Positions 1 to 64,000 of a stretch of 64,000 bases of DNA are shown piece after piece. The stretch covers positions 448,001 through 512,000 of the forward strand of contig CAWHHI010000006.1 in NCBI GenBank assembly GCA_963829055.1, in the 5' to 3' direction. The notes beneath the pieces were generated by a model that saw only the letters and a program-made list of their open reading frames with translations, made no database searches and was not told where the DNA came from. The position numbers and the translations under genes were made by a program. Each line of letters opens with the position of its first letter. Position 1 is the stretch's first letter. Source of the stretch: an uncultured Gemmatimonadaceae bacterium. Its GTDB lineage: Bacteria > Gemmatimonadota > Gemmatimonadetes > Gemmatimonadales > Gemmatimonadaceae.

Positions 1-2081
1 TGCACGAGATCCGGACGGCCGCGCGGCTCACGCACCCGCACGTGCTCGGCGTCCACGACTCCGGTGAAGCCGACGGGCTGCTGTACTACGTGATGCCGTA
101 CGTCGAGGGCGAAACCCTCCGCGCGCGTCTGACGCGCGAGGGCGCGCTTGCCGCTTGCCGGACGCGATGCGCCTGATGCGCGAGCTCGCCGACGCGCTCG
201 CCTACGCGCACGGCCACGGCGTGATGCACCGCGACTTGAAGCCCGAGAACGTGCTGCTCTCGGGCGGGCACGCCGTCGTCGCCGACTTCGGCATCGCCAA
301 GGCGCTCGCCGCCGCCACCGGAGGGACTGCCGAGCGCGGCGCGGGGACGTCTCGCCGCGTCGCGGCTCACGGCGACGGGCGTGGCGTTAGGCACGCCCGC
401 CTACATGGCTCCCGAGCAGGCGGTCGGCGACCTGGCCACCGACCACCGGGCCGACCTCTACGCGCTAGGCGTGGTGGCCTACGAGGCGCTGGCCGGCGCG
501 CACCCGTTCGGCGCGCGGCTCAGCGCAGGCACTCGTTGCGCGCGCATCTCACGGAGCCGCCCGCCCCGCTCGGCGACCGGCGCACGGACGCGTCGCCGGC
601 GCTGGCCGCGCTTGTCATGCGGCTGCTGGCCAAGGACCCGGCCGCGCGCCCGCAGAGCGCCGCGGCCGTGCTGCGCGCGCTCGACGACGCGCCGCCGCTG
701 GGCATGCCGGCGTCCGTCCGCTGCCCGCCCCTCGGCCGCGCTGGCCGAGACGGCGGCCGGTCGGCGGAGGCGCGTGGCGGTGCTCGCGGCCGCGGCGGCG
801 CTGGTGCTGGCCGCCGGCGTCGGCGGGTACGCCCTGTGGCGCCGGGCCCCGGCGTTAGGCGGGCGCGACGCGGCAGCGGCCGGCGTCGAACCGGCCGCGA
901 TCCGCGCGGTGGCGGTGCTGCCGTTCGAGAACACCGGGGGCGCGGCCGCCGACGACTACTTCAGCGACGGCATGACCGACGAGCTGGCCCACGCGCTCTC
1001 ACGTCTGCCGGGGCTGCGGCTCGCCGGCCGGACGTCGAGCTACGCGTTCAAGGGGAAGGCCGCCGCCGCCAGGAGATCGGCCGGGTGCTCGGCGTCGGCG
1101 CCTACGTCGGCGGCACGGTGCGGCGCGCGGGCGATCGGCTGCGGGTGACGACGCAGCTCGTGGGCACCGCCGACGGGAAGGTGCTCTGGGACAGCGTCTT
1201 CGAGAGCCGCTCGAGCGACGTCTTCGGCGTGCAGGACGAGTTCACGCGCGCGATCGTCGCCGCTCTGGCGGCGTCACTCGGCGGGCGCTGACGGCGCGCT
1301 TGTGCCGCGATGCGGCGCGCGGCACGACAAACCAGGAGGCGTACGACCTGTACCTGAAAGCGCGGTACTTCTGGCTCAATCGCAACGCAGCCAACATCGA
1401 CGCGCTCCGTCACGTACTACCGCGAAGCCATCGCGCGGGACCCGAACTTCGCGCGCGCGCACGCCGGGCTGGCGCTGGCCTACGCCATCCTGCCGGTCTA
1501 CATCCCCGACCCGAGCGACTCGACGACGGCGCTGAACGCGTCGAGCGCGCAACGCGCCATGCGCTCGACTCCACGCTCGCCGACGCGCAGATCGCGCTCG
1601 GCCTCGGGTTTGAGCGCCAACTGAGGTTCTGGCTATGCCCAGGCGCGCTGCCGCGCTGCGCTCAACATCGAACACGCCAGCGTCATCGCTGGATCACGTC
1701 CTCGGGTTTATTCTGCATGCGACAGGGCACCCTGACGAGGCGCTCGTCGAGCTGCGGCAGGCTACACAACTCGATCCACTGGCTAAGTCGGCCGCGAGCG
1801 CGTTCGCGGTCGCGCTCATTAGCGCGAGACGATTTCCCGAAGGCGAGGCTGCCTCGCGCCGTGTATTGACGATTGACTCCACGTTCTCGCTCGGCATCGG
1901 GAGCCTGGGGCTCGCGCAGGCGTTCAGCGGGCAGCCCGACAGCGCGGTGCGCACCCTCGAACGTGGCATGCGGTTGCACCCCGACGGTCCGGGGCAGCAC
2001 GCGCCCCTGCTGTTCGCCTACGCCGCCGCTGGGCGTTGGGCCGAGGCCGAGCGGATGCGCGTGGAGCTCCGCCGCCGGGTT
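1..2081 (+). CDS. Ser/Thr protein kinase with TM segment, TolB-N-like (AVLPF) domain and TPR repeats; 5' partial, frameshifted, C-terminus apparently truncated
   Basis: [34 protein letters not shown]...[21 protein letters not shown] spread over ORFs 155-1291, 381-1148, 1300-1869 and 1635-2378. Confidence 0.85.
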
Positions 2082-2085
2082 CCCC

Positions 2086-2394
2086 ATGCTCGAGTCGCTC
2101 GATATCACGACCTTCGCCGGACGCGTCGGAGAGGTCTTCCGGCTCGTGGTCGACGAGACGACCACCATCTCGAGCCGACTGATTGCCGTGACGCCGGCCA
2201 ACGGCGGATCGGCGAACCCAGCGCGCGCGGGCGGTCGCACGCCGTTCTCCCTCGTATTCCGCTCTCCGCCCGGCGCGCCGATGCCGCAGCGCATCTACCG
2301 CCTGCAGCACGAGGAGCTCGGCCAGCTCGAGCTCTTCCTCGTTCCGATAGGACCGGACGCGGATGGAATGTGCTATGAGGCGGTGTTCAGCTGA
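2086..2394 (+). CDS. DUF6916-like small protein
   Basis: MLESLDITTFAGRVGEVF...RTPFSLVFRSP...PQRIYRLQHEELGQLELFLVPIGPD...YEAVFS; family recognised from motif and context. Confidence 0.7.
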   Translation: MLESLDITTFAGRVGEVFRLVVDETTTISSRLIAVTPANGGSANPARAGGRTPFSLVFRSPPGAPMPQRIYRLQHEELGQLELFLVPIGPDADGMCYEAVFS

Positions 2395-2914: not shown

Positions 2915-3436
2915 TCAGGACCGCGGCGGAAAGACGCCCTGCAGCGCAATGCAGAAGGACATCGTTAGGCTCGGCATCATGTTGTTGTGCGGGGCCTGTC
3001 CGCCCGCGGATGCAAGCACCTGGCTTGCCATGGCCACGACGTTGGCTGATGCCGGTGCGAATGCCTGCCCTTTGTTCGCGCGAGCGAGCGAGTTCCCCGC
3101 GGGAGTCTTGCCGGTTGCGAGAGCGCTCTGCGCCATCATGGAGTGAGAGTGCGCGGGCATCTCGCTTTCCGAGAGCGTCGCGGTCTCGCTTCCCCCGGTC
3201 TCGCCGAGTACACGCGGCGAGAGCCCTTGCCCCTGTCCCGGGTGCATCGGCGCGCGGCCTCGCAAGTCGGGCAGCGCGAACGTGCTCTTTCCGTCACCCC
3301 CGTACGTCGTACCGACGAGAGAGAACAGCGCCGTGTTCTGCGAGAGTGGAAGCAACTGCCCATCACAGAACGCCCACCCTTTCGGGGCGAAGTTGAACGG
3401 GAAGATGCGGATCTCCGCGACGAAGGGATCGGCCAT
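2915..3436 (-). CDS. Phage tail collar domain (microcystin-dependent MdpB-like) protein, copy 3
   Basis: MADPFVAEIRIFPFNFAPKGWAFCDGQLL...YGGDGKSTFALPDLRGR...HNNMMPSLTMSFCIALQGVFP. Confidence 0.9.
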   Translation of the reverse strand: MADPFVAEIRIFPFNFAPKGWAFCDGQLLPLSQNTALFSLVGTTYGGDGKSTFALPDLRGRAPMHPGQGQGLSPRVLGETGGSETATLSESEMPAHSHSMMAQSALATGKTPAGNSLARANKGQAFAPASANVVAMASQVLASAGGQAPHNNMMPSLTMSFCIALQGVFPPRS

Positions 3437-3957: not shown

Positions 3958-4461
3958 TCAGTTGCGAGCCGGGAAAATTCCTTGCAGCGCGATGCAGAAG
4001 TTCAGCGTCAGAAACGGCTGCATGTTGGAATGCGCCTGGCCGCCCCCGACGCTCGCGATGGTTGCTGGCGACAGTGGAGTCGGGTTCGTCGCGCCAGTGT
4101 ACACGGCACCACCGTTCGCCGTCGCGAGCATGTTTGCGTTAGGCGCCGCTGTCGTCGCCTGGGTGGCGACAGCACGGACGGCGTGCGTGTGACTCGGCAT
4201 CTCGGCGGTCGATAGTGTGTGCGCCTGCTCGCCAGCTTTCCCGCCCAGCGCATGCCCATTGCCGACATGGATCGGCGTGCGCGCCCGAAGGTCAGGAAGT
4301 GCGAAGGTCACCCGGCCATCGCCCCCGAAGGTCGTCCCGAGCAGCGCGAAGAGCGCCTGGTTCTGGTTGATGGGCAGCAACTGCCCGTTGCAGAGCGCCC
4401 ACCCTTTCGGGGCGAACGCGAAGCTCATGATGCGAATCTCGCCGAGGAACGGCTCCGCCAT
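3958..4461 (-). CDS. Phage tail collar domain (MdpB-like) protein, copy 1
   Basis: MAEPFLGEIRIMSFAFAPKGWALCNGQLL...FALPDLRAR...HSNMQPFLTLNFCIALQGIFP. Confidence 0.9.
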   Translation of the reverse strand: MAEPFLGEIRIMSFAFAPKGWALCNGQLLPINQNQALFALLGTTFGGDGRVTFALPDLRARTPIHVGNGHALGGKAGEQAHTLSTAEMPSHTHAVRAVATQATTAAPNANMLATANGGAVYTGATNPTPLSPATIASVGGGQAHSNMQPFLTLNFCIALQGIFPARN

Positions 4462-4573
4462 GGCGGTACCTCATCGTCATTGTGCCTAACAGGGCAGGGT
4501 GGCCACTATGTGCCACTCACAGCTGAGGCGCAAGCAAGTTCATCCACCGGAGAGCTCTATCGGCGGTCGAACG

Positions 4574-5523
4574 TTAGGTGCGCGCTCTCCCCGCACTCGG
4601 CGGCTCGCCGTAACGCGCTGTCCACACGCGGCGCAATTGGCGGCCGTTCGCGAAGCCGCACGCCGCAGCCACCGCGTCCAGCGTCAGCGTCGGGTTCCGC
4701 ATCAGGTCTCGGGCGCGCTCGACCCGCAATCGCTCGCGAAAGTCGTGAATCGAGATGCCCGTCGCGCGCTTGAACACGCGCGTCAGGTTGCGTTCGCTCA
4801 TCCCCGCGATCTCCGCGAGCTCGTCGAGCGTCGCACGGGTGGCAGGATTTGCGACGAGGTGTTGCTGCACCTGGTGGATGCCCGGGCTCAGGTGCGTCTG
4901 ATAGTCGAGGTACACGCTGTCCTGCCGGTGGCGCACCATCGCGGCGCAGGTAGACCACCATCTCCCGCGCGACTTCCGCGGCGACGACCGGGCCCGCGTC
5001 GTGCTCGATGAGCGCGAGCGCCATGTCGATGCCGGCCGCGATGCCGGCGCTCGTGACGATGCCGTCATCCTCGACGAACAGCCGGTCTCCCACCACGCGC
5101 GCTCGTGGGAACCTCGCTTGCAGCTCGGCCACCCGCTTCCAGTGCGTCGTGCACGTCCGGCCGTCGAGCGCGCCCGCCTCACCTAACGCGAACGCGCCGG
5201 TGCAGACCGAGCACAGCTCGGCGCCCGCCCGCTGCGCCCGCCGGAGCCACGTGACGAGCTTGGGTGGCACGCGAAAGTCCGCTACGCGGAAATCCCGGGA
5301 CGATGACGCGTTCTCCGGGCCCAACATCCGGCAACGCTTCGAGCCCACCGAGCTCGAGGCCCTGTGCTGTCTGTACCGTGGGCGTCGCGGCGTGATACGA
5401 CAGCGCATAACGCGCCCCGAGCGCCGTCGCCTCGTGGAGGACCTGGACGGGGCCAGCCAGGTCCAGGATCTCGCAGCCAGGAAAGACGACGAAGATCGCG
5501 CGGCGCGGCGCCTGGCTGGTCAT
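4574..5523 (-). CDS. GlxA family transcriptional regulator (DJ-1/PfpI + AraC HTH), frameshifted
   Basis: EILDLAGPVQV, SVCTGAFALGEAGALDGRTCTTHW, TSAGIAAGIDMAL, MSERNLTRVFKRATG, VAAACGF. Confidence 0.88.
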
Positions 5524-7719: not shown

Positions 7720-8915
7720 ATGCTGAAAACCACGCCGTTCCACGCACGCACGGCGCCGCTCGTCCGCGCGCAGACCTGGCGACGCTGGGCCGGCTACCAG
7801 GTCGCGAGCGCGTACGACCCGCATCCGGACCGCGAGTACGCCGCCGTGCGCAACGCCGCGGCGCTGTTCGACGTGTCGCCGCTCTACAAGTACCTCGATC
7901 CGCGGGCGCGACGCCGCGCGGCTGCTCGACCGCATGGTCACGCGTGACGTCACCAAATGCGCCGTCGGCCAGGTCCTGTACACGCCCTGGTGCGACGCGC
8001 ACGGCAAGGTCATCGACGACGGCACCATCAGCCGCCTGGACGACGAACACGTACCGGCTCACGAGCGCCGAGCCTAACGTGCGGTGGCTGACGATGAATG
8101 CCGTCGGCCTCGACGTGACCATCGAGGACGTCTCCGACGCGCACCGGCGCGCTCGCGCTCCAGGGCCCGCTGTCGCGCACCATTCTGCAGCACGCTGTCG
8201 CCGGCAGACCTCGCGACGCTCAAGCTACTTCCGGCTCGTGCACACGACCGTCCGCGACATCCCCGTCACCATCTCGCGCACGGGCTACACCGGCGACCTC
8301 GGCTACGAGCTCTGGGTGGACGCCGACCGCGCGGTCGCGCTGTGGGACGCGCTCATGGAGGGCGGGCAGGGCTACGGCATCACGCCCGCGGGCATCTGGG
8401 CGCTCGACATCGCGCGCATCGAGGCCGGTCTCGTCATGCTCGACGTCGACTACTACTCCGCGCATCACGCGCTGATCGAGGACCAGAAGTCGTTCCCCGA
8501 CGAGATCAACCTCGCGTGGACGGTGAATCTCGACAAAGGTCCGTACAACGGACGACGCGCGCTGCGGAAGGCGCGTGCGAAGAAGCAGGCGTGGGCGTTC
8601 GTCGGCATCGAGGTGCAGTGGGACTCGCTCGAGCGGCTCTACGCGAAGCGCGGGCTGCCGCCGCACCTGCCGAACGTCGCGTGGCGCACGAGCGCGCCGG
8701 TGCTATCGCGACGGCGAGCAGATCGGCTACGCGACGAGCGGCTGCTGGTCGCCGCTGCTCAAGCGATCGCTGGCGCTCGCGCACATTCAGGCGCCGCACT
8801 TCGCGCCCGGCACGCCCGTGCGAGATCGAGGTGACGGTGGAGCATCATCGCGAGCAGGCGAACGCGATCGTTCGCAAGCTGCCGTTCTATCGACCCCGAG
8901 CGGAAGCGCGCATGA
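7720..8915 (+). CDS. Aminomethyltransferase (GcvT-like folate-binding) family protein, frameshifted
   Basis: MLKTTPFH, AALFDVSPLYKY, ISRTGYTGDLGYELWV, ARIEAGL, GYATSGCWSPLLKRSLALA. Confidence 0.88.
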
Positions 8916-10533
8916 GCACTCCGCGCTACGACGCCATCATCATCGGCGGTGGACACAACGGACTCGTCGCCGCGGCCTACCTCGCGCGCGCGGGCCGGAA
9001 GGTCGTCGTGCTCGAGCGTCGCCCGCTCGTCGGCGGCGCGGCGGTCACCGAGGAGATCGTTCCCGGCTTCAAGTTCTCGGTGTTCTCGTACGTCGTGAGC
9101 CTGCTGCGACCCGAGATCATCCGCGACCTCGACCTGCCCGCGCACGGGCTGCAGATCCTTCCGCTCGAGAGCACCGTCACGCCGCTCGACAACGGCGACT
9201 ATCTCGCCGGCTGGGCCGACGCCGACGAGTCGCGCCGCGAGATCGCGCGCCATTCGCCGCGCGATGCCGAGGCCGCGTCGCAGTTCGGCCGCCTCATGCA
9301 CCACATGGCGATGGCGGTGAAGCCGATCCTCGGGATGGTGCCGCCGGACCCGGCATCGCTCGCGCCGTCCGACCTGCGCGGTCTGCTCAAGCTCGGCGGG
9401 CACTTCCGGTCGTTAGGCGCCGAGCGGTTCCATGCGCTGCTACAAGCTCATGACGATGAGCAGCGCCGACTACCTCGACGAGTGGTACGAGTTCGATCCG
9501 CTCAAGGCGACCAAGTCGGCCAGCGGCATCATCGGCACGTTCCTCGGACCACGCTCGCCCGGCTCGCGCGTACGTGCTGCTCCATCACTACATGGGCGAG
9601 ATCGACGGCGCCTTCCGCGCGTGGGGCTTCCAGAAGGGCGGCACCGGCGCGATCAGCGAATCGATCGCCAGCGCGGCGCGGTCGTTCGGCGCGGAGGTTC
9701 GAACCGACGCCGACGTGGCGCGCGTGCTCGTGAAGGACGGGCGCACCACTGGCGTCGCGCTCGCGAACGGCGACGAGATCGCGGCGCCGATCGTCGTGTC
9801 GGGTCTCGACCCGCGCCGCACGTTCATCGACCTCGTCGAGTCGAAGGAGCTGCCTGACGATCTCGTCGCGAGCATCGCGCAACTACCGGTTCCGCGGCTC
9901 GTCAGGCAAGGTGAACCTCGCGCTCGACGGGCTGCCCGACTTCACCTGTCCTCGAACGGCAACGGCGGCTATCGATCGCCGCTCCTGGCGACCGCGCTCC
10001 GCGGCGCGATCTCGATCAGCCCGAGCGTCGACTACCTCGAGCGCGCGTACGACGACGCCAAGTACGGCGAGTTCTCGCGCCATCCGTACATGGACATCGT
10101 CATTCCGTCGATGATCGATCCGGGGATGGCGCCGCCGGGCAAGCACGTCATGAGCATCTTCGTCCAGTACGCGCCGTACCATCTGAACGGCGGCTGGACG
10201 GACGCGAAGCGCGAGGCGTTCGGCGACGCGGTCATCGACACGCTCGAGCGCTATGCACCGAACATCCGTTCGATCATTCGCCACCGGCAGGTGCTGACGC
10301 CCGCCGACATCGAGCGCATCACCGGACTCTCCGAGGGCAACATCTTCCAGGGCGAGCTCGCGCTGCATCAGCTCTTCTTCCTCCGCCCGGCGCGCGCAGT
10401 GGGCGAAGTACCGCACGCCGGTGAAGGGCTACTGGCAGTGCGGCGCCGGCACGCATCCCGGCGGCGGCATCATGGGCGCGTCGGGCCGGCTCGCGGCGCT
10501 CGAGATCCTCGGCGCGAGGAGCCTGACGCATGA
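8912..10533 (+). CDS. Phytoene dehydrogenase-like FAD-dependent oxidoreductase 1, frameshifted
   Basis: YDAIIIGGGHNGLVAAAYLARAG, GGAAVTEE, DPGMAPPGKHVMS, GNIFQGEL, GAGTHPGGGIMGASG. Confidence 0.88.
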
Positions 10534-21274: not shown

Positions 21275-21283
21275 GCGCGACGT

Positions 21284-52962: not shown

Positions 52963-55753
52963 ATGACAGCGACGAGCGATGCCGCAGCCACCGTGTATCG
53001 ACAGCCTGTCGCTGACGTTGTGGAATCGCTTGGCTCGCATCTGCAACATGGTCTGACGGAAGCGGAGGCGAGGGCCAGGCTCGAGCGGGACGGGCCTAAC
53101 GAGCTCACGGGCGAACCGCCGGTACCGGCATGGCGACGCTTCCTCGCGCAGTTCCAGGACGTGCTGGTGATCCTCCTGCTCATAGCGACCGCGGTGTCGG
53201 CTGCGCTCTGGTTTTTCGAGCGCGACACCGCGCTGCCGTACGAGGCGCTCGCCATTCTCGCTGTCGTACTGCTCAACGCGACGATGGGCTACCTCCAGGA
53301 ATCGCGTGCCGAGGCCGCTGTTGCCGCCCTGCGCGCCATGTCGGCGGCCGAGGCGACGGTCATCAGGGACGGAGAACGACAGCGCGTGCCGAGCACGCAG
53401 ATCGTCGCTGGGGACCTCGTCATCATCGAGGAGGGCGACACCATACCGGCGGATGCGCGGGTCGTCGAATCGACGGCGCTCCAGACGGCCGAGGCAGCGC
53501 TCACCGGCGAGAGCTTGCCGGTGTCCAAGGACACCGCCACCATCGCCGACGAAGTCGCGCTCGGCGACCGGCACAACATGGTGTTCAGCGGCACGGCTGT
53601 GACGTATGGCCACGGCAACGCGATCGTGACCGCGACCGGAATGCGCACCGAGATGGGGCGCATCGCGGGCATGCTCGAGGAGTCGCCGGCCGAGTCGACG
53701 CCGTTGCAGCGTGAGCTCGACCGTACGGGCAAGGTGCTGGGCATCGTCGTCATCGTGATCGCGGTCGTCATGATCGGGACGATCGTGCTCGTCGAGCACG
53801 TGCGCGATTTCTCCACGTTCGTCGATGTGCTGATCCTGGGCGTCGCGCTGGCGGTCGCGGCGGTGCCGGAAGGGCTGCCGGCGGTGGTGACGGCCGTCCT
53901 GTCGATCGGCGTCCAACGTATGGCGCGCCGGCAGGCGATCGTTAGGCATCTCGCGGCCGTCGAGACGCTCGGCTCGGCGAGCGTCATCGCATCGGACAAG
54001 ACGGGCACGCTCACGAAGAACGAGATGACCGTGCGCATCGTCGTCACGGCGAGCGGTCGCGTCACGTTCGGTGGCTCGGGCTACGCGCCGGACGGTGAGG
54101 TTCGCCGCGAAGACGGTACCGCCATCGATCCCGGACTGCGCTTCGAGCTCGAGCGCGCGCTGGCCGCGGCCGACCGTGCGAACAATGCCGTCGTGGAAGA
54201 ACGCGACGGACGCTGGACCGTACAGGGCGATCCCACCGAGGGCGCGTTGCTCGTCGCCGCGCGTAAGGCGGGTTTGGACGCTGACGCCCTCGAGGCCCGA
54301 CTCCCGCGCGTCGCGGAGGTGCCGTTCTCGTCCGAGCGAAAGCTCATGAGCACCGTGCATCGCGACGCCGAGCAACACAAGCTGATCGTCTTCGCGAAAG
54401 GGGCGCCCGACGTGTTGCTCGGCCGCTGCTCACAGGAGATCGTCGGCGAGGATCGTCGCCCGCTCACCCCCGCGCGCCGGGCCGAGATTCTCCGCGCCAA
54501 CGATTCACTTGCCGATGAGGCGCTGCGGACGCTCGCCGTCGCAGCCCACTGGCTGCCTGACGACGCAGCTTCCGCCACGCTCGACGCGCCTGATCCGAAG
54601 CTGGAACAGGACCTCGTCTTCGCCGGGTTGATCGGGATGATCGACCCGCCGCGCGCCGAGGCGAAGGAGGGTGTGGCGCGCGCGAGGGCTGCCGGTATCC
54701 GGCCCATCATGATCACGGGCGACCACCCGAGAACGGCCGGGGTCATCGCCCGCGAGCTGGGCATCGCAGCCGACGAACGTGTGGTGACCGGGGCGGATCT
54801 CGATCGACTGGACGATGACGCGCTGGCCCGAACCGTCGGCGAGGTATCGGTGTACGCGCGCGTGAATCCGGAGCACAAGCTGCGTCTCGTGAAGGCGCTG
54901 CAGCGTGGCGGCGCGATCGTAGCCATGACCGGCGATGGCGTGAATGATGCGCCCGCCCTCAAGACCGCGGACATCGGCGTGGCGATGGGAATCACAGGGA
55001 CGGACGTGTCGAAGGAAGCCGCCGACATCGTGCTCGCCGATGACAACTTCGCGTCCATCGTGGCCGCGGTCGAGGAAGGTCGCGCGATCTTCGCCAACAT
55101 CAGGAAGTTCCTGCGCTATCTGCTGTCGTCGAACATCGGTGAGGTGATGACGATGTTCTTCGGCGTGGTGTTCGCCGACCGCATCGGACTGAGCCGATCG
55201 GGCAGTGCCGTGGTGCTGCCTCTCCTGGCGACGCAGATCCTGTGGATCAACCTGGTGACTGACGGTGCGCCGGCGCTGGCGTTAGGCGTCGATCCCGCGG
55301 ACGCTGGGCTCATGGAGCAGCCACCGCGGCCCCACGGTGAAGGCGTGATCACGCCGCGCATGTGGCGGGGGATCTTTTTCATCGGGGTCATCATGGCGGC
55401 CGGCACGCTGTTCGTGCTCGACGCCGCGATGCCGGGTGGGTTCTTCGAAGGGGCTGGGGACCTGCGATACGGTCAGTCCATGGCGTTCACGACCTTGATG
55501 ATGTTCCAGCTCTTCAACACACTGAACGCGCGATCCGATGAACGCAGCGCGTTCATCGGGCTGTTCACCAATCGCTGGCTGTGGGCGGCCCTCGGCGTCT
55601 CGATCGTCCTCCAGTTCGCTGTGCTCTACGTTCCGGTGCTGCAGCAGGCGTTCGGCACGACCGGCTTGAGCGCGAGCGACTGGCTGCGGTGCGTCGCGGT
55701 GGCGAGCTCGGTGCTCTGGCTCCGGGAAGTGACGAAGCTCCTCACGCGTAGGG
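52963..55753 (+). CDS. Cation-transporting P-type ATPase (type IIA, Ca2+-ATPase-like); end approximate, reads in frame into the next gene in this sequence
   Basis: TGES, VPEGL, DKTGTLT, KGAPD, TGD, GDGVNDAPALK, QILWINLVTDG. Confidence 0.93.
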
Positions 55754-55761: not shown

Positions 55762-56578
55762 ATGACCGACAGGCCGAAGCACACCAATCGAGATCGAACC
55801 GAAACCGCCCGTCAGACGCTGATCGATGCGGCAATGGTGGCGTACGAGGATGCAGGCCTGAGTGGGCTTTGCGCCGAAGGCCGCTGGGACGCTGCCGTCG
55901 ACGCCATGCGAAGCGTCGACCTGGTTGAAGGGCCGCAGTCCGATTCCGTCGCTGAGCTCATCGCGAGTCTCTCTCGAGCCGTCGCGGTCATTGCGGATGC
56001 GTCGGCACCTCCGCCCAGCGGCGGCAGCGTCGCCGCGGCAGTCGGTGCACTCGCCGCGGCGCTGACGCAGATGGTCGCCGGCCTCACGGCCGGGCGACCC
56101 CGCTATGCGCACGTCGCGGAAGAGATGCGGAGCGCGGCAGAGCGCGCCGCCAGCCTCGCCGCGGATCTCACGGAGCTCGTTAGGCAGGATGCGGTTGCGG
56201 TGGAGGCCGTGACTGCCGCCTATCGACTGCCAAAGGGAACGGACGAGAACGTCGCCGCGCGGACCGCGGCGATCGAGCAGGCAATGCACTCCGCCACCGT
56301 AGCGCCGTTCGAGATCGCGCGTGCGGCCGCTGCCGTCGCCGAGCTCGCCGCAACGGTGGCGGAGCGAGGGAATACGAACGCGGTCGCGGATGCCGCAGTC
56401 GCCGCGGTCCTCGCCGAGGCGGTGTGTCGCGCTTCAGCGCTGACCGTTCGCGTGAACGTACCCGCACTCCGCGATACGCATGCTGGCGCGCGCCTCGACC
56501 ACCGAGGCGATGGCATTCGCTGCCGCCGCCGCGGCGGCGGCAGGACGCGCCGTGACCCGCGCTGGCGAGCCCGCCTGA
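55762..56578 (+). CDS. Cyclodeaminase/cyclohydrolase (FTCD_C) family protein with a small N-terminal domain
   Basis: PPPSGGSVAAAVGALAAALTQMVAGLT, AYRLPK, GNTNAVADAAVA, VRVN; N-terminal AYEDAGLSGLCAEGRWDAAV. Confidence 0.78.
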
Positions 56579-57992: not shown

Positions 57993-59384
57993 GTGTCCAA
58001 CACCGTTAGGCGGGAGGATGCCGGCGACGGATCAGGGGTTCCGCCGCCTCATGTGAGGCCCGTACGCCGAGCGGCGGCTCACCTGGGCGAGCTCGCGGAG
58101 CGCTATGGCGCTCGCGTCGTCCGCTGGCTGGTGATCGGAATCATCCTCATCTCCGCCATCATCGGGCTGTTGTTCATCACGCGTGGTACGGCCGTCCGCC
58201 GCGTCCGCGGGGTGGGAGGCGACGGCACGCCCATCGCGGCCACCGAACCCTCGTTTCCACTCGCTATCGCGTTGCTCACCGGCACGCCGCTCGTGATGGG
58301 CAATCGCGTCGAGCTCGCGCTCAACGGTGACGGTACCTACCCGCGCCTGTGGGCGGACCTGCGCGCCGCCCAGCGGACGATCACGGTCCAGATGTACTAC
58401 GCCGGGCCGGGCCGGGTCGCCGATTCGTTAGGCGCGGTGCTCGGCGAGCGGGCTCGTGCCGGCGTCGCCGTGTACCTGCTCTACGATGCGTTCGGCTCGA
58501 ACCTGTCCGACGCCTATCTCGAGCGACTCCGGCGTGCCGGCGTTCGCGTCGAGGCGTTCCGCCCGCTCCGCTTCGAGAATCTGTGGGTCGTCCAGAACCG
58601 CTCCCACGTGCGGGGCATCGTCATCGACGGGCAGGTCGGGTGGACTGGCGGCTTCGGCATCGATGACAAGTGGCTGGGTGGCGGGCATAAGCCGGACGAG
58701 TGGCGCGAGACGAACGTCCGGTTCGAGGGGCCTGCTGTGCTTCAGCTGCAGGCCGCATTCGTCGCCGCGTGGTCGGAGGCGACGGGCGTGCTCCTCGCCG
58801 GCCGCGCGGCAGTCAACACGCACGAGGGCGGAGTGGCGAGAGCCGGGCTGCTCTACACCGCGCCCACGCTCGGGAGCACCGCGGCCGAGCGCTATCTCGC
58901 GTTATCCATCGCGACCGCGCGGGAGCGTCTCTACGTCACGAACGCCTACTTCGCACCTGACGACAACTTCATGGCGCTGCTCATGCGGGCAGCGCGTCGT
59001 GGCGTGGACGTGCGTCTGCTCGTGGGTGGGCCGCTGACCGATGTGCGCACGGCGCAGCTCGCGGCACAGGCGCGCTACGACTCACTGCTGAGCGCCGGCG
59101 TTCACATCTACGAGTATCAGCCGAGTACGCTGCACGCGAAGACGTTCGTCATCGATGGCGTCTGGGCCTCGATCGGCACGATGAACTTCGACAACCGGTC
59201 GCTCGCGCTCAACGACGAGTCCACGCTCATGGTGCTCGACTCGGTAGCGGGCAAGCGGCTGGAGGCCGTGTTCCTGGACGACCTGCGCGACTCGAAGGAG
59301 ATCGACCTGCGCACGTTCCGGCGTCGCGGCTGGATTCAGCGCGTGAAGGAGTGGGCGGCGGATCAGATCACCCGAGTGCTCTAG
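57993..59384 (+). CDS. cls: Cardiolipin synthase / phospholipase D family protein
   Basis: GNRVELALNG, SHVRGIVIDG (variant HKD1), NAYFAP, LHAKTFVIDG...GTMNFDNRS. Confidence 0.87.
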   Translation: MSNTVRREDAGDGSGVPPPHVRPVRRAAAHLGELAERYGARVVRWLVIGIILISAIIGLLFITRGTAVRRVRGVGGDGTPIAATEPSFPLAIALLTGTPLVMGNRVELALNGDGTYPRLWADLRAAQRTITVQMYYAGPGRVADSLGAVLGERARAGVAVYLLYDAFGSNLSDAYLERLRRAGVRVEAFRPLRFENLWVVQNRSHVRGIVIDGQVGWTGGFGIDDKWLGGGHKPDEWRETNVRFEGPAVLQLQAAFVAAWSEATGVLLAGRAAVNTHEGGVARAGLLYTAPTLGSTAAERYLALSIATARERLYVTNAYFAPDDNFMALLMRAARRGVDVRLLVGGPLTDVRTAQLAAQARYDSLLSAGVHIYEYQPSTLHAKTFVIDGVWASIGTMNFDNRSLALNDESTLMVLDSVAGKRLEAVFLDDLRDSKEIDLRTFRRRGWIQRVKEWAADQITRVL

Positions 59385-59589
59385 CGCAGGTCGCCGTTAC
59401 GGACTCGGCAGGTATTCGGTATCCTGCTCATCCCGCTGGGAGCGCGTGCACGGCAGCCATGGCGCGGTGCAGCGCGCCTAACGACCATTGCCGGCGTTGC
59501 GACCGGCGTCCGCATGCTGACGGCACGGAGATCGCGTTAGGCCCGGTTATCGAGATGCGAGGCGGCCGGGTCCGCCAGAGGAGGATGTG

Positions 59590-61108: not shown

Positions 61109-61330
61109 ATTCGCGGGCTCGGGCGGAGTTGGGTCGGACGTCGCGCGGGGAGGATCACAACAAAGACCGTCGTCACGATCTCGACCCTCGCGCTGATGAT
61201 CGCACCCAGGTGGAACGCCTGGGTTGGTGCTCAGCGTGCATGCCCGCAGCGGGCCTTGATGCGGTTTGCGGGGCATGCGAGGTTCACCGGCGGTATCACC
61301 TCCCATCGCCCCGTCCATCTGGAGAGCCTC

Positions 61331-64000
61331 ATGCGTGCGAGCTGCGCGCTCACCGTCGTTGTCGCCCTGGCCGTCAGCAGCCCCATGGCTGCCGTGTCGC
61401 AGCAGAACGCCCCCACCGACACCTCGAAGAAGACGGCTCCAAACACCGAGCTACCGCTCCTCCCCACGCGCCAGACCACCTTCAGCACCGACGAAGGCAC
61501 CTGGATGTCGCTCGACGTCTCGCCCGACGGACGCACGATCGTCTTCGACCTCGTGGGCGATCTGTACACGCTGCCGATAGCGGGCGGCAAAGCCACGCGT
61601 CTCACCAGTGGCATGGGGTTCGACGGTCAGCCGCGCTTCTCGCCCGACGGCAAAACAATCGTGTTCGTGAGCGACCGCAGCGGCTACGAGAATCTCTGGA
61701 TCGTAGACGTGGCCGGCGGAATGCCGCGGGCGATCACGAAGGACAAGGATGCACAGTACCTCTCGCCCGCCTGGACGCCCGACGGCAAGTACATCGTCGC
61801 GTCACGTACCAAGACGGGTATTCTCGGGCAGCGCGTACGACCTGGTGCTGGTCAACAAGGACGGAGGCACCGGGCTCGCGCTCACGGGGCCTGGCACCGG
61901 TGCCGCGCCAAGCGGGCCGCCGAACCCGCTCGTGCCGCCGCCATTCAACAACTACCTCGGTGCCGCGGTCTCCCCGGACGGACGGTACATCTACGCCAGC
62001 GTGAAGCGCGGCGGCTTCAAGTACGATCAGATGCTCACCGATCGCTGGCAGCTCGGGCGTCTACGATCGCAACACCGGCCAGACGTATCTTCGCACGAGC
62101 AGTCTCGGTGGCGGCATGCGCCCCGCGATCAGTCCCGACGGCAAGTGGCTCGCCTACGGCTCGCGTATCGATGCCGGAACCGGCCTGCGCCTCCGCGAGA
62201 TCGCCACCGGCGATGAAGTCTGGCTCGCGCGGGACATCCAGCGCGATGACTCCGAGTCGCGCTACACGCGCGACGTCCTGCCGGGTTACGCGTGGACGCC
62301 GGACTCGCGGGCCGTCGTCATCACCTACGGGGGCAAACTCTGGCGCCTGGCGCTGCCTAACGGCTCACCGTCCGCGATCCCCTTCTCAGCCGATGTCCAG
62401 ATCGACATGGGGCCGCTCGTGAAGTTCGAGTACCCGATGGACGACTCGGTTCTCACGGTCAAGCAGATTCGCAACGCGCGCCCGTCGCCCGATGGCAAGC
62501 GGCTCGTCTTCTCGGCCCTCGACAAGCTGTGGCTGATGGACCTGCCGAACGGACGTCCGCGCCGGCTCACCAGCGGCACCGCCGGCGAGCACTCGCCAGC
62601 CTGGTCGCCCGACGGGCGGTACGTCGCGTACGTCACGTGGACCGAGCAGGGGGGCGACATCTGGCGCATCGCCACGGCGACGCCTAACGCGCGGCCGGAG
62701 CGGCTCTCGCGGCAGACCGCGTTCTACGAGAACCTCAATTACGATCCCACCGGCCGGCGCATTGTCGTCATTCGCGGTCCGCGCGAGGAACGCATCGAGA
62801 AGACCGACGAGTTCTCGGGGCCGGGCGCGCAGGTGAAGGAGCTGGCCTGGCTACCGGCGGCGGCGGCGACGTCACGCAGATCGCGCCCGTCAACTTCTAC
62901 GGCCGGCCGCATTTCACGCGCGACACGATGCGCGTGTACATCTACGACCCGGTCGATGGCGTGGTCTCCATGCGCTGGGACGGCACCGACCGCCGCGCGC
63001 ACGTCAAAGTCACGGGCTACACAGATCCGCTCCAGGGTCCGACTGGCCCGGCCGGGCCCCGCGAACGAGGTGATCCTCAGCCCGGATGGCGATCAGGCGT
63101 TCGCTGACGTCGACAACAAGCTCTATCTGGTTTCCGTCCCCGTGGCCGGCGGCGCAACGCCGACGATCTCGATCTCCACTCCTGCCGCGGCGCCCGTGCC
63201 GGTCCGCAGGCTCTCACGCGTGGGCGGCGACTTCCTCGGCTGGACGAACGACGGCAAGTCCATCTACTGGTCGTTGGGTCACAGCTACTTCACGTACGAC
63301 CTCGCGACCGCCTCACGCGCGATCGCGGATTCGACGCGAAAAGCCGACAGCCTCACCCGCGCCGGCGCCAAGCCCGACACGTCGGCCGCGGCGAAGCGGC
63401 CCGCCTATGCGCCCGACGCGGCGTGACGTCTCGATCACGGTGCCGCGAGATCGACCCACCGGCGTGATCGCGCTCCGCGGCGCGCGCATCGTGACCATGA
63501 AGGGGAACGAGATCATCGAGCGCGGCGACATCGTCGTCACGAACAATCGCATCACCGCCGTCGGCGCGGCGGGAAGCGTCGCCATTCCCGCCGGCGCGCG
63601 CTCGTTCGACGTCAGCGGCACGACGATCGTACCGGGATGGGTCGACATCCACGCCCACATGTGGCCGTCGTGGGGGATCCACAAGACGCAGGTATACGAG
63701 TACCTCGCCAACCTCGCGTACGGCGTCACGACCACGCGCGATCCGCAGACGTCGAGCACCGACGTGCTGACGTACGGCGATCTCGTCGAGACGGGCGACA
63801 TGATCGGCCCACGCATTCTCACGACCGGCCCGGGCGTGTTCTGGACCGACGAGATCGCGAGCGCCGACGATGCGCGCGAGGTGCTCACGCGCTACTCGGA
63901 CTTCTATCAGACGCACACCCTCAAGCAGTACATGGCCGGCCAGCGCATGATCCGGCAGTGGATACTGATCGCCGCGAAGGAGCAGAACATCACGCCGACG
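61331..64000 (+). CDS. Secreted amidohydrolase with N-terminal PD40/TolB repeats; frameshifted, 3' partial
   Basis: TDEGTWMSLDVSPDG, repeated PxWSPDG, IVPGWVDIHAH, YGVTTTRDP. Confidence 0.9.

What the first reader, a model, noticed from the sequence alone, without database searches (positions are those of the whole stretch)
385..62689. Highly iterated non-palindromic octamer CGTTAGGC/GCCTAACG (~1 per kb) written into genes in all frames: candidate uptake- or protein-binding signal
Seen: a manual scan finds about 65 GTTAGG/CCTAAC cores. Examples start at 386, 854, 2964, 4138, 8073, 9412, 10595, 12671, 15615, 16926, 21270, 23988, 27457, 30545, 33540, 37681, 40841, 45785, 49213, 53941, 58427 and 62683. 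About 60 extend to CGTTAGG and about 51 are the exact octamer, whereas a simple base-composition model (~69% GC) predicts only 2-3. Orientation is balanced (about 34 + vs 31 -). The motif occurs inside conserved coding sequence in different frames using codons that are otherwise rare here: TTA-GGC (kinase ALGTPAY), GTT-AGG (P-ATPase AIVRHL), CCT-AAC (Pro-Asn), CTA-ACG (Leu-Thr) and CGT-TAG (dacB stop). No single substitution error preserves both the Leu-Gly and Val-Arg residues, which argues against a basecalling artefact. Established: a density near 1/kb with frame-independent embedding in genes is typical of Neisseria DUS, Pasteurellaceae USS and cyanobacterial HIP1, while Chi and KOPS are strand-polarised. 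Inference: this is a DNA-level signal, such as a DNA uptake sequence, a nucleoid or partition protein site, or a methyl-directed/repair motif. I know of no description of it in this lineage.
Basis: partly seen in the sequence, partly recalled or inferred. Interest (0 to 1): 0.9.

Follow-up and report, generated by a model that had tools for sequence, protein, structure and literature searches.

The report
Hyper-abundant genome word CGTTAGGC
This soil bacterium has written one eight-letter DNA word about 5,000 times, evenly spaced, into its genes and spacers against its own codon habits, much like the tags by which Neisseria and Haemophilus recognise their own DNA; the same word fills an unrelated soil phylum and equals the core site of integron gene cassettes, but what reads it is unknown.

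Summary
The window holds 51 exact CGTTAGGC (24 +, 27 -) against 1.04 expected, and the whole 7.78 Mb genome holds 5,004 (0.64 per kb). That is 22 times a codon-aware null. The word lies in all four open frames, in stop codons and in unassigned DNA. It shows no replichore polarity, and copies avoid lying close to one another.

It is not an assembly artefact. Fragmented assemblies of the genus carry it, contigs of four other studies reproduce copies, and motif codons encode the residues that orthologs encode with other codons.

Among 31 relatives, 8 genomes are rich and 2 intermediate, scattered on an RpoC tree beside poor sisters. The same word, as TCGTTAGGC, fills Chthoniobacterales (Verrucomicrobiota). 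It equals the R' core of the integron attC sites of these lineages.

The integron integrase, ComP, Vsr, RecC and alpha-type AddB do not track it. ComEC, ComEA and PilT are present but not distinctive.

Best reading (0.4): a tag read on incoming DNA, uptake-sequence-like, kept up by molecular drive.

This scan found the same word earlier in other genomes. My literature searches found no description.

The parts
385..392 (+). CGTTAGGC copy, unassigned DNA
853..860 (+). copy in gene 774-1148(+), GCG-TTA-GGC (A-L-G)
2963..2970 (+). copy in phage-tail-collar-domain gene 2915-3436(-), AGC-CTA-ACG (S-L-T)
4137..4144 (+). copy in tail-collar gene 3958-4461(-), G-CCT-AAC-G (P-N)
8072..8079 (-). copy, unassigned DNA
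9411..9418 (+). copy, unassigned DNA
10594..10601 (+). copy, unassigned DNA
11035..11042 (+). copy, unassigned DNA
12670..12677 (-). copy, unassigned DNA
15614..15621 (+). copy in Ser/Thr kinase gene 15125-17674(-), CGC-CTA-ACG (R-L-T)
16492..16499 (+). copy in kinase gene, G-CCT-AAC-G (P-N)
16925..16932 (-). copy in kinase gene, TCG-TTA-GGC = S-L-G of the conserved DQYSLGV stretch
21269..21276 (+). copy holding the stop codon (CGT-TAG-GC) of the last piece of the S13 peptidase gene
21978..21985 (-). copy, unassigned DNA
22597..22604 (-). copy in gene 22467-22709(+), GGC-CTA-ACG (G-L-T)
23734..23741 (-). copy, unassigned DNA
23987..23994 (+). copy in amidohydrolase gene 23899-25347(+), CCG-TTA-GGC (P-L-G)
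24644..24651 (+). copy in amidohydrolase gene, GCG-TTA-GGC (A-L-G)
26868..26875 (-). copy, unassigned DNA just after gene 26485-26862
27456..27463 (-). copy in GNAT gene 26927-27601(+), AGC-CTA-ACG (S-L-T)
29616..29623 (-). copy in AlkZ-like gene 29597-30655(+), CGC-CTA-ACG (R-L-T)
30544..30551 (+). copy in AlkZ-like gene, C-GTT-AGG-C (V-R)
31376..31383 (+). copy in gene 31042-31716(+), GCG-TTA-GGC (A-L-G)
31628..31635 (-). copy in gene 31042-31716(+), GGC-CTA-ACG (G-L-T)
32567..32574 (+). copy in GGT fragment 31934-32581(-), TGC-CTA-ACG (C-L-T)
33539..33546 (-). copy, unassigned DNA
35078..35085 (-). copy in RF3 fragment 35065-35919(+), CGC-CTA-ACG (R-L-T)
36232..36239 (-). copy in gene 36064-36417(-), CCG-TTA-GGC (P-L-G)
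37680..37687 (-). copy in Omp85-type gene 37011-39269(-), TCG-TTA-GGC (S-L-G)
39086..39093 (+). copy in Omp85-type gene, G-CCT-AAC-G (P-N)
39567..39574 (-). copy, unassigned DNA
40185..40192 (-). copy in gene 39597-40526(-), GCG-TTA-GGC (A-L-G)
40840..40847 (-). copy in gene 40523-41647(-), C-GTT-AGG-C (V-R)
41673..41680 (-). copy, unassigned DNA
42363..42370 (-). copy, unassigned DNA
45784..45791 (-). copy, unassigned DNA
46161..46168 (-). copy, unassigned DNA (ligase fragment region)
48136..48143 (-). copy in MacB/FtsX permease gene 46775-49477(+), G-CCT-AAC-G (P-N)
49212..49219 (+). copy in permease gene, GCG-TTA-GGC (A-L-G)
50121..50128 (-). copy in FtsH gene 49605-50780(-), GCG-TTA-GGC (A-L-G); lies in a contig of run X1 with 0 differences
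51865..51872 (+). copy in gene 51851-52933(+), C-GTT-AGG-C (V-R)
53094..53101 (-). copy in P-type ATPase gene 52963-56652(+), G-CCT-AAC-G (GPNE); the rare CCT codon is kept in 5 of 5 motif-bearing orthologs
53940..53947 (+). copy in ATPase gene, C-GTT-AGG-C (AIVRHL); orthologs use GTC-CGC, GTG-CGC or GTG-CGT
55280..55287 (+). copy in ATPase gene, GCG-TTA-GGC (LALGVD); orthologs use CTC-GGC or CTT-GGC
56178..56185 (+). copy in the FTCD_C-like tail of the ATPase reading frame, C-GTT-AGG-C (V-R)
58004..58011 (+). copy in PLD-like gene 57993-59384(+), C-GTT-AGG-C (V-R)
58426..58433 (+). copy in PLD-like gene, TCG-TTA-GGC (S-L-G); lies in a contig of run X11 with 0 differences
59476..59483 (-). copy, unassigned DNA
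59535..59542 (+). copy, unassigned DNA
62355..62362 (-). copy in PD40/beta-propeller gene 62116-63426(+), G-CCT-AAC-G (P-N)
62682..62689 (-). copy in the same gene, G-CCT-AAC-G (P-N)
4484..4491 (-). near-copy TGTTAGGC (tolerated outer-position variant)
4572..4579 (+). near-copy CGTTAGGT
5181..5188 (-). near-copy CGTTAGGT
20272..20279 (+). near-copy AGTTAGGC
21486..21493 (-). near-copy CGTTAGGA
25022..25029 (+). near-copy TGTTAGGC
28801..28808 (+). near-copy CGTTAGGG
30171..30178 (+). near-copy CGTTAGGT
32708..32715 (+). near-copy CGTTAGGA
38264..38271 (-). near-copy CGTTAGGG
43732..43739 (+). near-copy AGTTAGGC
47469..47476 (+). near-copy GGTTAGGC
47544..47551 (+). near-copy CGTTAGGG
51574..51581 (+). 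near-copy CGTTAGGT

Best explanation
CGTTAGGC is a lineage-specific tag on double-stranded DNA, read by a sequence-specific protein that is not yet identified. The tag acts per DNA fragment, not per gene.

The most likely mechanism is the one known for DNA uptake sequences. Incoming DNA that carries the word is taken up, or recombined after entry, more often than DNA that lacks it. Any mutation that creates or restores the word is then over-transmitted within the population (molecular drive). The word accumulates wherever protein sequence allows, on both strands and in all frames. It keeps accumulating until about one copy per kilobase makes further nearby copies useless.

Shown here:
- the anatomy of the word's distribution;
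- the strength of the drive;
- that copies arise by point substitution;
- the short-range repulsion between copies;
- the patchy, cross-phylum distribution with a dialect;
- the presence of DNA-import genes.

Inferred, not shown:
- that reading happens on incoming DNA;
For: Genome-wide and extreme.
- There are 5,004 copies, at 0.48-0.80 per kb in each of the 20 contigs.
- It is the top 8-mer under order-2 and order-3 Markov models (5,004 against 102 and 257 expected).
- It ranks 32nd of 65,536 8-mers by raw count.

Written against codon use.
- Genes hold 3,059 copies, against 136 after synonymous shuffling.
- 49% of all TTA codons lie in the word.
- The word occupies 23% of [SPTA]LG sites, 20% of [SCRG]LT, 46% of PN[VADEG] and 10% of VR[LPHQR].
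- 345 stop codons sit in it: 157 of 1,537 TAG and 188 of 742 TAA.
- Unassigned DNA, 32% of the genome, holds 1,633 of the 5,004 copies.
- Even the ribosomal-protein and rpoBC region holds 17 copies in 37 kb.

Made by substitution, lineage by lineage. Orthologs encode the same residues with other codons: GTT-AGG against GTC-CGC, and TTA-GGC against CTC-GGC. Sites differ between species, and some changes are non-synonymous, such as PD to PN and FS to LG.

Fragment-level logic.
- I permuted occupancy among 14,073 potential sites. Gaps under 100 bp number 22 against 161 +/- 11. Gaps under 200 bp number 84 against 305 +/- 14. Gaps under 400 bp number 319 against 564 +/- 16. None of 200 permutations is as low.
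- A purely local mutational or repair bias would not make copies repel each other.
- There is no replichore polarity: 900 forward and 840 reverse where GC skew is positive, 1,332 and 1,332 where it is negative, p = 0.28.
- Neighbouring copies are oriented almost at random, 2,589 same and 2,395 opposite.

Graded specificity, as for a protein reader. The core GTTAGG is strict: changes at positions 2 and 7, and G-to-A at position 6, leave 0-23 copies each in genes (0.0-0.33 of the shuffle null, itself inflated by the word's own rare codons). The outer positions tolerate T: TGTTAGGC is 9.9 times and CGTTAGGT 13.6 times the codon-aware null.

A dialect. In Verrucomicrobiota the base before the word is T in 61 of 68 copies (G031) and 151 of 157 (G033). 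In G014 it is G 22, T 22, C 17, A 4.

Import hardware exists. ComEC is found in 31 of 31 relatives. PilT-family ATPases and ComEA are found in G000, G014, G007, G031 and G033, with comEA next to pilB and pilT.

Foreign-looking DNA lacks the word. Three blocks of 31-50 kb at contig ends have no copy.
Against: - No uptake experiment exists, and natural competence is not known for these lineages. My searches found nothing on it.
- No receptor candidate emerged. ComP_DUS matched in 0 of 8 rich genomes.
- Pilin-like genes of G000 have orthologs in motif-poor G007. None resembles a Verrucomicrobial pilin. My pilin detection was incomplete for Verrucomicrobiota: I recovered 9 of the 30 family hits.
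- The competence genes I found are equally present in motif-poor relatives, so they do not discriminate.
- Uptake sequences are normally confined to one family. Here an identical word occurs in two phyla, and there are several rich lineages with poor sisters. That requires a mobile reader or repeated convergence.
- The exact match to the integron attC R' core is not explained by a plain uptake model.
- Close inverted pairs in terminators, typical of the Neisseria DUS, are not seen.
Confidence: 0.4

Rival explanations
1. Integron-linked site. The word is the double-stranded R box (GTTRRRY core) read by an integron integrase or a related tyrosine recombinase. The genome-wide copies would then be docking or insertion sites for cassettes (attG-like), or sites that titrate the recombinase. 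The cross-phylum identity would follow from the universality of integron cores.
For: In motif-poor relatives, the few copies lie in one-directional arrays every 500-650 bp inside a conserved repeat of about 40 nt that ends in CGTTAGGC-R-GC. These are attC arrays (G021:C95, C80 and C43; G019:C3).

G000 has an integrase over the family cut-off at C20:208041-208958. Next to it are attC-like sites ending in GCGTTAGGC.

The Verrucomicrobial integrons of G031 and G032 have attC sites ending in TCGTTAGGC. That is the same 9-mer as their genome-wide dialect.

Cassette boundaries are defined by GTTRRRY, with RYYYAAC as the inverse core (PMC3053210, passages read). Integrases also insert cassettes at genomic attG sites (bioRxiv 10.1101/2022.09.11.507474, passages read).

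The preference at the last position, C then T, fits the Y of the consensus.
Against: The integrase does not track the word. It is over the cut-off in 4 of 8 rich genomes, in 1 of 3 intermediate or marginal ones, and in 13 of 20 poor ones.

G014, the densest Gemmatimonadaceae genome, has only an integrase broken into three frames. G002, G004, G010 and G033 show none, though these assemblies are incomplete.

The flanks carry no L box or hairpin. Information is at most 0.13 bit per flanking position, and no attC-like words are enriched.

The published attG sites need only GWT.

No known integrase reaction converts neighbouring bases, so it gives no route for writing the word by point substitution. 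Insertion at copies inside genes would be harmful.
Confidence: 0.17
2. HIP1-like word. The word is produced and maintained by a DNA modification or repair system, such as an orphan or restriction-linked methyltransferase with a mismatch-specific nickase. Such a system would resolve heteroduplexes in favour of the cognate sequence.
For: Cyanobacterial HIP1 reaches similar densities and is also written into genes. Its link to methyltransferases is recalled from the literature, not read here.

One-step neighbours that lie on synonymous paths are below the codon-aware null: CGTTGGGC 0.48, CGCTAGGC 0.60, CGTTTGGC 0.49. This is what conversion of near-cognate sites would give.

A patchy distribution with poor sister taxa is typical of mobile modification systems.
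Against: Vsr was found in 0 of 8 rich genomes and only in 3 poor ones.

A very-short-patch type bias acts on one position. It can at most convert the pool of single-mismatch neighbours, which number tens to hundreds, not 5,000. It also does not explain multi-step changes such as CGC to AGG.

A local repair bias does not predict repulsion between copies.

The word is not palindromic. C-to-T variants are enriched only at the two outer positions, not opposite the core G positions, which speaks against simple 5mC decay.

The shuffle null for neighbours is inflated by the word's own rare codons, so the 'depletion' is uncertain.
Confidence: 0.15
3. Chi-like self tag. The word is recognised by a helicase-nuclease or another DNA-degrading defence, which it switches from degradation to recombination or protection. 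DNA with frequent copies would survive and foreign DNA would not.
For: It is an octamer, as Chi is. It is over-represented throughout the genome and absent from three large foreign-looking blocks. Both orientations would be needed to protect the two ends of any fragment, which would fit the balanced orientation and the even spacing.
Against: RecC was found in 0 of 31 relatives. Alpha-type AddB was found in 0 of 8 rich genomes. Other AddB types and AdnAB were not searched.

There is no replichore polarity, which known Chi sites show.

The saturation, 20-46% of usable sites, is far beyond that of known Chi sequences (the comparison figure is recalled, not computed).
Confidence: 0.1
4. Binding site of a nucleoid-structuring or segregation protein, selected for regular spacing along the chromosome.
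For: The spacing is even, about one copy per 1.5 kb, with short-range repulsion and no orientation rule.
Against: Selection per site would be very weak compared with the codon cost paid 5,000 times.

Close relatives live without the word, and G007 has no substitute word in 200 kb.

No known nucleoid protein uses an exact 8-mer at this density (recalled).
Confidence: 0.05
5. Assembly or basecalling artefact of an error-prone long-read assembly.
For: The assembly has many frameshifts. The S13 peptidase gene is in three frames. The FtsH, RF3, GGT, GcvT and ligase genes are truncated. Contigs of four other runs carry indels relative to the assembly at 49574-49575 and 50757-50785.
Against: Same-genus genomes with 300-1,170 contigs carry the word at 0.35-0.68 per kb.

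Many hits of the collection scan lie in assemblies whose contig names are of the short-read assembler type, k141_ or NODE_.

Contigs of four runs from four studies cover the stretch. Copies at 50121 and 58426 lie in contigs with 0 differences. None of the 40 differences shown, of 516, falls in a copy.

Motif codons encode the conserved residues.

No single-substitution source word is frequent enough; the commonest neighbour has 1,763 copies.
Confidence: 0.01

Closest known systems
Uptake signal sequence (USS) of Pasteurellaceae
   Same: - A short non-palindromic word at roughly one per kb, with equal numbers on both strands.
- Embedded in genes in the frames that allow it, with effects on codons and sometimes on residues.
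- More evenly spaced than chance.
- Shared by related species, with dialects.
   Different: - It occurs in other phyla, and the same word is found in two unrelated phyla.
- It has no AT-rich flanking tracts; flank information is at most 0.13 bit.
- Uptake bias is untested.
- The distribution within the family is patchy, with poor sister taxa.
DNA uptake sequence (DUS) of Neisseriaceae with its receptor ComP
   Same: The density, strand balance, presence inside genes, family-level dialects and type IV pilus machinery in the genome are all alike.
   Different: - No ComP_DUS homolog was found in 0 of 8 rich genomes.
- There is no excess of close inverted pairs (terminator-like): 41 gaps under 64 bp in all, and 30 gaps under 50 bp against about 160 expected.
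- The word is 8-9 bases long, not 10-12.
Integron attC R' core site (GTTRRRY) and genomic attG sites
   Same: The letters are identical. GTTAGGC fits GTTRRRY. The attC sites of integrons in these same lineages end in (Y/G)CGTTAGGC, and in TCGTTAGGC in Verrucomicrobiota.
   Different: - The genome-wide copies have no inverse core, no L boxes and no hairpin.
- They lie inside conserved genes without any insertion.
- They do not co-occur with the integrase.
- The attG sites described need only GWT.
HIP1 (highly iterated palindrome GCGATCGC) of cyanobacteria
   Same: It is an octamer at up to about one per kb. It spreads by nucleotide substitution, lies inside genes, and is lineage-specific. Its function is unresolved (recalled).
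   Different: The word here is not a palindrome. It occurs in other phyla. A link to a methyltransferase was not testable here.
Chi (crossover hotspot instigator) and polar words such as KOPS
   Same: All are octamers over-represented across the core genome.
   Different: There is no replichore polarity. RecC and alpha-type AddB were not found. The over-representation is far stronger.

Membership tests
DNA uptake sequences (USS/DUS) | Short word hundreds to thousands of times over-represented, about one per kb | tested here: met
   5,004 copies in 7.78 Mb, against 102 (order 2) or 257 (order 3) expected. That is 22 times a codon-aware null.
DNA uptake sequences (USS/DUS) | Both orientations equally frequent, no link to the direction of replication | tested here: met
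   2,547 forward and 2,457 reverse. The GC-skew test gives p = 0.28.
DNA uptake sequences (USS/DUS) | More even spacing than chance (USS) | tested here: met
   Permutation among 14,073 potential sites: 84 gaps under 200 bp against 305 +/- 14; 0 of 200 permutations are as low.
DNA uptake sequences (USS/DUS) | Close inverted pairs at terminators (DUS) | tested here: not met
   Gaps under 20 bp: 10. Gaps of 20-50 bp: 20. Both are below expectation. Convergent and divergent neighbours show no excess.
DNA uptake sequences (USS/DUS) | Preferential uptake of DNA carrying the word by competent cells | not testable with these tools
   Needs transformation or uptake assays.
DNA uptake sequences (USS/DUS) | A dedicated receptor (ComP in Neisseriaceae) | tested here: not met
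   PF16732 matched in 0 of 8 rich genomes. It was over the cut-off only in motif-poor G016. The pilin comparison found no candidate.
DNA uptake sequences (USS/DUS) | DNA import machinery encoded | tested here: met
   ComEC in 31 of 31 relatives. PilT family and ComEA in G000, G014, G031, G033, and also in motif-poor G007.
Integron attC site | GTTRRRY core at the 3' end | tested here: met
   GTTAGGC fits the consensus. It is identical to the R' cores of local attC arrays (consensus from PMC3053210).
Integron attC site | Inverse core RYYYAAC and an imperfect palindrome 57-141 bp upstream, forming a hairpin | tested here: not met
   No information in the flanks. No enriched flank words. GCCTAAC-N35-130-GTTAGGC occurs 76 times, against 52 for the opposite arrangement, out of 5,004 copies.
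Integron attC site | One-directional arrays next to an integrase gene | tested here: not met
   Orientation is mixed. The integrase does not co-occur with richness. A small true array does exist at G000:C20, about 200-208 kb.
HIP1-type iterated palindromes | Palindromic word | tested here: not met
   The reverse complement of CGTTAGGC is GCCTAACG.
HIP1-type iterated palindromes | Cognate methyltransferase in the genome | not tested
   Family-level presence of methyltransferases would not discriminate. No methylome data were at hand; only assembled contigs of the runs were served.
Chi sites | Orientation bias with replication | tested here: not met
Chi sites | RecBCD or AddAB present | tested here: not met
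   RecC in 0 of 31 relatives. Alpha-type AddB in 0 of 8 rich genomes. Other AddB types and AdnAB were not searched.
Very-short-patch repair footprint (Vsr/Dcm type) | Vsr endonuclease present | tested here: not met
   PF03852 in 0 of 8 rich genomes, found only in G007, G012 and G028.

The most novel reading that the evidence does not exclude
The word is a DNA-uptake or recombination tag whose specificity was set on the R' core of integron attC sites.

It would have been gained several times within Gemmatimonadales and once or more in Chthoniobacterales. Each gain would start a molecular drive that rewrites thousands of codons.
Probability: 0.15. Interest if true: 0.95.

Novelty: new variant of a known kind. 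Interest (0 to 1): 0.8.

Why it matters
Sequence-tagged self-recognition of DNA is known in detail only from two proteobacterial families. A tag of the same anatomy in Gemmatimonadota and Verrucomicrobiota would matter in several ways.

- It would show that this strategy is widespread in soil, where gene exchange is hard to measure. The tag is strong enough to own half of all TTA codons.
- Its identity with the integron cassette core would link two gene-exchange systems that have been studied separately.
Rich and poor sister genomes can be compared directly.
- On the practical side, the word is a simple marker. It flags foreign or mis-binned DNA in these genomes, and it identifies the host lineage of contigs in soil metagenomes.

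Tried and rejected
- **Maximal-order Markov ranking.** Uninformative, because the sub-words are themselves dominated by the word. Lower orders were used instead.

- **Gene finders.** Two simple gene finders covered only 65-75% of the genome. The third covered 68% and was used. 'Unassigned' therefore mixes spacers with missed or frameshifted genes, and I make no claim about true intergenic density.

- **Depletion of core single-mismatch neighbours.** Not used as evidence, because the shuffle null is inflated by the word's own rare codons.

- **Integrase as reader.** It does not co-occur with richness.

- **ComP, Vsr, RecC and alpha-type AddB.** None was found in rich genomes.

- **Pilin screen.** There were 66 family hits in five genomes. 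My motif-based ORF picker recovered 38 pilin-like ORFs, only 9 of them from the two Verrucomicrobia. There was no cross-phylum similarity in the C-terminal parts, and no pilin was confined to rich genomes. The result is inconclusive.

- **Search for transferred genes.** I compared 5,801 predicted G000 proteins with 138 kb of Verrucomicrobial DNA. Only housekeeping genes matched: ribosomal protein S12 at 76%, a tRNA synthetase, and similar. The sample is far too small to exclude a shared reader.

- **Synteny around comEA-pilB-pilT.** Abandoned, because the G000 locus is broken by frameshifts.

- **A different word in poor relatives.** G007 has none in 200 kb. The apparent poly-A word there is probably masked sequence read as A. 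G010 has the same word at low density.

- **Modification signal in raw reads.** Only assembled contigs of the runs were served, so this was not possible.

- **Two Acidobacteria hits of the collection scan (G034, G035).** These are not enriched, with 76 copies each, below their controls.

- **Careful tree.** It did not finish within the time limit, so the quick tree is reported.

Full report
**1. Observation**

The window is G000:C6:448001-512000, in a 7.78 Mb genome of 20 contigs with 66-67% G+C.

- It holds 51 exact CGTTAGGC, against 1.04 expected from 100 dinucleotide-preserving shuffles. None of the 100 shuffles reaches 51.
- It holds 65 GTTAGG cores, against 5.7 expected.
- The octamer is 24 + and 27 -. 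With 14 near-copies, the cores are 34 + and 31 -, and 60 of 65 extend to CGTTAGG.
The kinase copy at 16925 lies in the conserved DQYSLGV stretch, not in 'ALGTPAY'. The CGT-TAG stop of the S13 peptidase piece is real.

**2. Genome-wide picture**

- Every contig carries the word at 0.48-0.80 per kb. The total is 5,004 copies: 2,547 forward and 2,457 reverse.
- It is the most over-represented 8-mer under order-2 and order-3 Markov models (102 and 257 expected). It ranks 32nd of 65,536 by raw count.
- Under order 4 the excess shrinks to 1.7-fold, because the sub-words consist mostly of the word itself.
- The flanks carry at most 0.13 bit per position.

I predicted 5,801 genes covering 68% of the genome. 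This set is crude, because the assembly has many frameshifts.

| Location of the 5,004 copies | Copies |
|---|---|
| Wholly inside a predicted gene | 3,041 |
| — frame xCG-TTA-GGC | 1,243 |
| — frame xxG-CCT-AAC-G | 834 |
| — frame xGC-CTA-ACG | 568 |
| — frame xxC-GTT-AGG-C | 396 |
| — either of the two stop-containing frames | 0 |
| Straddling a gene end | 330 |
| Remaining 32% of the genome | 1,633 |

- Within-gene synonymous shuffling gives 136 copies, against 3,059 observed.
- The word owns 49% of TTA codons, 17% of CTA, 11% of CCT and 8% of AGG.
- It occupies 23% of [SPTA]LG sites, 20% of [SCRG]LT, 46% of PN[VADEG] and 10% of VR[LPHQR].
- 345 predicted stop codons lie in it.
- The ribosomal-protein and rpoBC region has 17 copies in 37 kb.

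**3. Not an artefact**

The assembly is error-prone. Genes are split or truncated, and contigs of other runs carry indels relative to it. Even so, four lines of evidence show the word is real.

- Same-genus genomes of 260-1,170 contigs and G014 (300 contigs) carry the word.
- Many collection hits lie in assemblies with short-read-type contig names.
- Twenty runs of 15 studies hold about half of the 31-mers of window 46001-56000. Contigs of four of these runs, from four studies, cover all 30 bins of 46001-60000. The copies at 50121 and 58426 lie in contigs with no difference. None of the 40 differences shown, of 516, hits a copy.
- In the P-type ATPase, the motif codons encode the residues that orthologs encode otherwise. 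AIVRHL is GTT-AGG here and GTC-CGC, GTG-CGC or GTG-CGT elsewhere. LALGVD and ETLGSA are TTA-GGC here and CTC-GGC, CTG-GGC or CTT-GGC elsewhere.

**4. How it arises and is kept**

- Sites differ between species. Each species has copies at places where the others have ordinary codons, and several changes need two or three substitutions.
- Some changes alter residues at variable positions, such as PD, PE or PQ to PN, and FS to LG.
- In slowly evolving genes, copies are often shared. G000 has six sites in rpoC-rpoB. Of 11 comparisons with motif-rich genomes, 8 are identical and 1 is the tolerated variant CGTTAGGT. In motif-poor G008, 0 of 5 are identical. With 20-46% saturation of usable sites, this could reflect descent or convergence.
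- At ATPase column 36, the rare CCT codon is kept in 5 of 5 motif-bearing genomes.
- The specificity is graded. The outer positions tolerate T and, less well, G. The core is strict.

**5. Fragment-level logic**

- There is no replichore polarity.
- Neighbouring copies are oriented nearly at random.
- Copies repel each other. Compared with random occupancy of the 14,073 usable sites, gaps under 100, 200 and 400 bp number 22, 84 and 319, against 161, 305 and 564. No permutation of 200 is as low.
- Three blocks at contig ends have no copy: C6:5440-55037, C11:0-46789 and C6:591808-623330. They hold ordinary metabolic genes and one primase-like gene. They may be foreign DNA, recent islands or chimeric joins.

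**6. Distribution**

Among G000 and its 30 relatives:

| Group | Genomes | Copies |
|---|---|---|
| Rich | genus g1 (7 genomes) and G014 | 2,501-6,360 |
| Intermediate | G010, G030 | 605, 345 (2.3-2.6 times their reversed-word control) |
| Marginal | G018 | 194 (below its control) |
| Poor | 20 genomes | 6-65, all below control |

- G013, one of the poor genomes, is unpublished.
- In G010 the same word is the top 8-mer (25 against 1.8 expected in 200 kb). G007 has no copy and no substitute word.
- I built a quick RpoC tree of 23 genomes. Seven had no hit at the threshold, G013 was dropped, and the careful search did not finish. On it, rich lineages sit next to poor sisters: G014 with G012, G010 with G008, and G030 at the base of an otherwise poor family. 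So the word was gained or lost several times.
Of the 80 rows shown, 32 are Gemmatimonadaceae or Gemmatimonadota. Another 29 are Chthoniobacterales, Spartobacteria or Verrucomicrobiae. The remaining 19 are scattered singletons.
- Three Verrucomicrobial genomes hold 5,186, 3,272 and 4,562 copies in 4.3, 3.8 and 3.2 Mb. Two Acidobacteria hold 76 each.
- In the Verrucomicrobia the base before the word is T in 61 of 68 and 151 of 157 copies, so their word is TCGTTAGGC. Gemmatimonadaceae show no such rule.

**7. The integron coincidence**

- In poor relatives, the few copies form one-directional arrays every 500-650 bp, inside a conserved repeat ending in CGTTAGGC-R-GC. These are cassette arrays.
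- GTTAGGC fits the GTTRRRY core that bounds cassettes (PMC3053210, passages read).
- G000 has an integrase and a short array with sites ending in GCGTTAGGC.
- The Verrucomicrobial integrons have sites ending in TCGTTAGGC, the same as their genomic dialect.
- Yet the integrase is over its cut-off in 18 of 31 relatives irrespective of richness. G014 has only a broken copy, and G033 has none.
- The genomic copies lack every other attC feature.
- Published genomic insertion sites need only GWT (bioRxiv 10.1101/2022.09.11.507474, passages read).
- A paper linking natural transformation to cassette shuffling was seen only in a search listing (PMC12614218).

**8. Candidate readers**

| Candidate | Result |
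|---|---|
| ComP_DUS | 0 of 8 rich genomes |
| Vsr | 0 of 8 rich, 3 of 20 poor |
| RecC | 0 of 31 |
| Alpha-type AddB | 0 of 8 rich |
| ComEC | 31 of 31 |
| PilT family and ComEA | present in two rich Gemmatimonadaceae, two rich Verrucomicrobia and one poor genome |

The pilin comparison and a small cross-phylum protein screen gave no candidate.

**9. Reading**

- The anatomy matches uptake sequences in most features that I could test. Copies that repel each other argue for a function or drive that counts copies per DNA fragment.
- I therefore favour a tag read on incoming DNA, at uptake or at recombination, kept up by molecular drive (0.4).
- The cross-phylum identity and the match to the cassette core are not explained by the plain model. 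They keep an integron-linked reading alive (0.17), along with the bolder reading that the tag was set on the cassette core.
- A modification or repair drive (0.15), a Chi-like self tag (0.1) and a structural site (0.05) remain possible.

**10. Prior knowledge**

- Word searches returned only primers and unrelated constructs in the 20 of 478 papers listed.
- Searches for uptake sequences or competence together with these phyla found nothing relevant.
- This scan had already noted the same word in other genomes, with the same closest-known families, the integron match and the cross-phylum sharing. I saw the integron match before I read those notes. I took the cross-phylum lead from them and tested it.

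Noticed in passing
window 21284/21413, 34037-34180, 35922-36059, 45011-45181, 49477-49628: A second repeat family with the conserved core TGTCATTCCGAGCG has 685 copies in the genome. It occurs mostly as inverted pairs 120-150 bp apart in spacers, like a REP or MITE element. Its core words are also among the top 8-mers of motif-poor G007. Depth of foreign contigs peaks at these places.
   Followed up: partly
window 19685-21274; 49605-50785; 35065-35919; 31934-32581; 8238-8834; 46184-46753: Many genes are split or truncated. The S13 peptidase is in three frames. FtsH lacks its N-terminus, and RF3 lacks its GTPase domain. GGT, GcvT and the ATP-dependent ligase are fragments. Contigs of four other runs show single-base indels at 49574-49575 and 50757-50785, so at least some of the breaks are assembly errors.
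   Followed up: partly
G000:C6:5440-55037, G000:C11:1-46789, G000:C6:591808-623330 (outside the window): Three blocks of 31-50 kb at contig ends have no copy of the word, with G+C of 0.70, 0.66 and 0.73. They hold ordinary metabolic genes, a large PAS/GAF histidine kinase and a D5_N primase-like gene. They may be recent islands, foreign DNA or chimeric joins.
   Followed up: partly
G000:C20:200001-216000 (L037): The genome's own integron. The integrase lies at C20:208041-208958 (-), just over the family cut-off (265.7 bits). About eight attC-like sites ending in GCGTTAGGC lie downstream on the same strand, an 'inverted integrase' layout.
   Followed up: partly
L001-L005 (G021:C95, C80, C43; G019:C3); G035:C26: Long one-directional cassette arrays occur in motif-poor Gemmatimonadales and in an Acidobacteria genome. 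G021:C95 has up to 26 attC sites in 24 kb. Nearly every attC ends in the exact octamer.
   Followed up: partly
window 2915-4461: Three tandem genes for proteins of 167-173 aa with phage tail collar domains. One also weakly matches the baseplate Gp10 C-terminal domain. All lie within normal word density.
   Followed up: no
window 52963-56652: The P-type ATPase reading frame runs on into a formiminotransferase-cyclodeaminase C-terminal (FTCD_C) domain, giving 1,229 aa. Orthologs align only to about residue 950, so this may be a fusion or a read-through caused by an assembly error.
   Followed up: no
G000:C12:489-495 kb and G007:C6, G014:C266: comEA lies next to pilB- and pilT-type ATPase genes in three Gemmatimonadaceae genomes. 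This is a conserved small competence and pilus cluster.
   Followed up: partly
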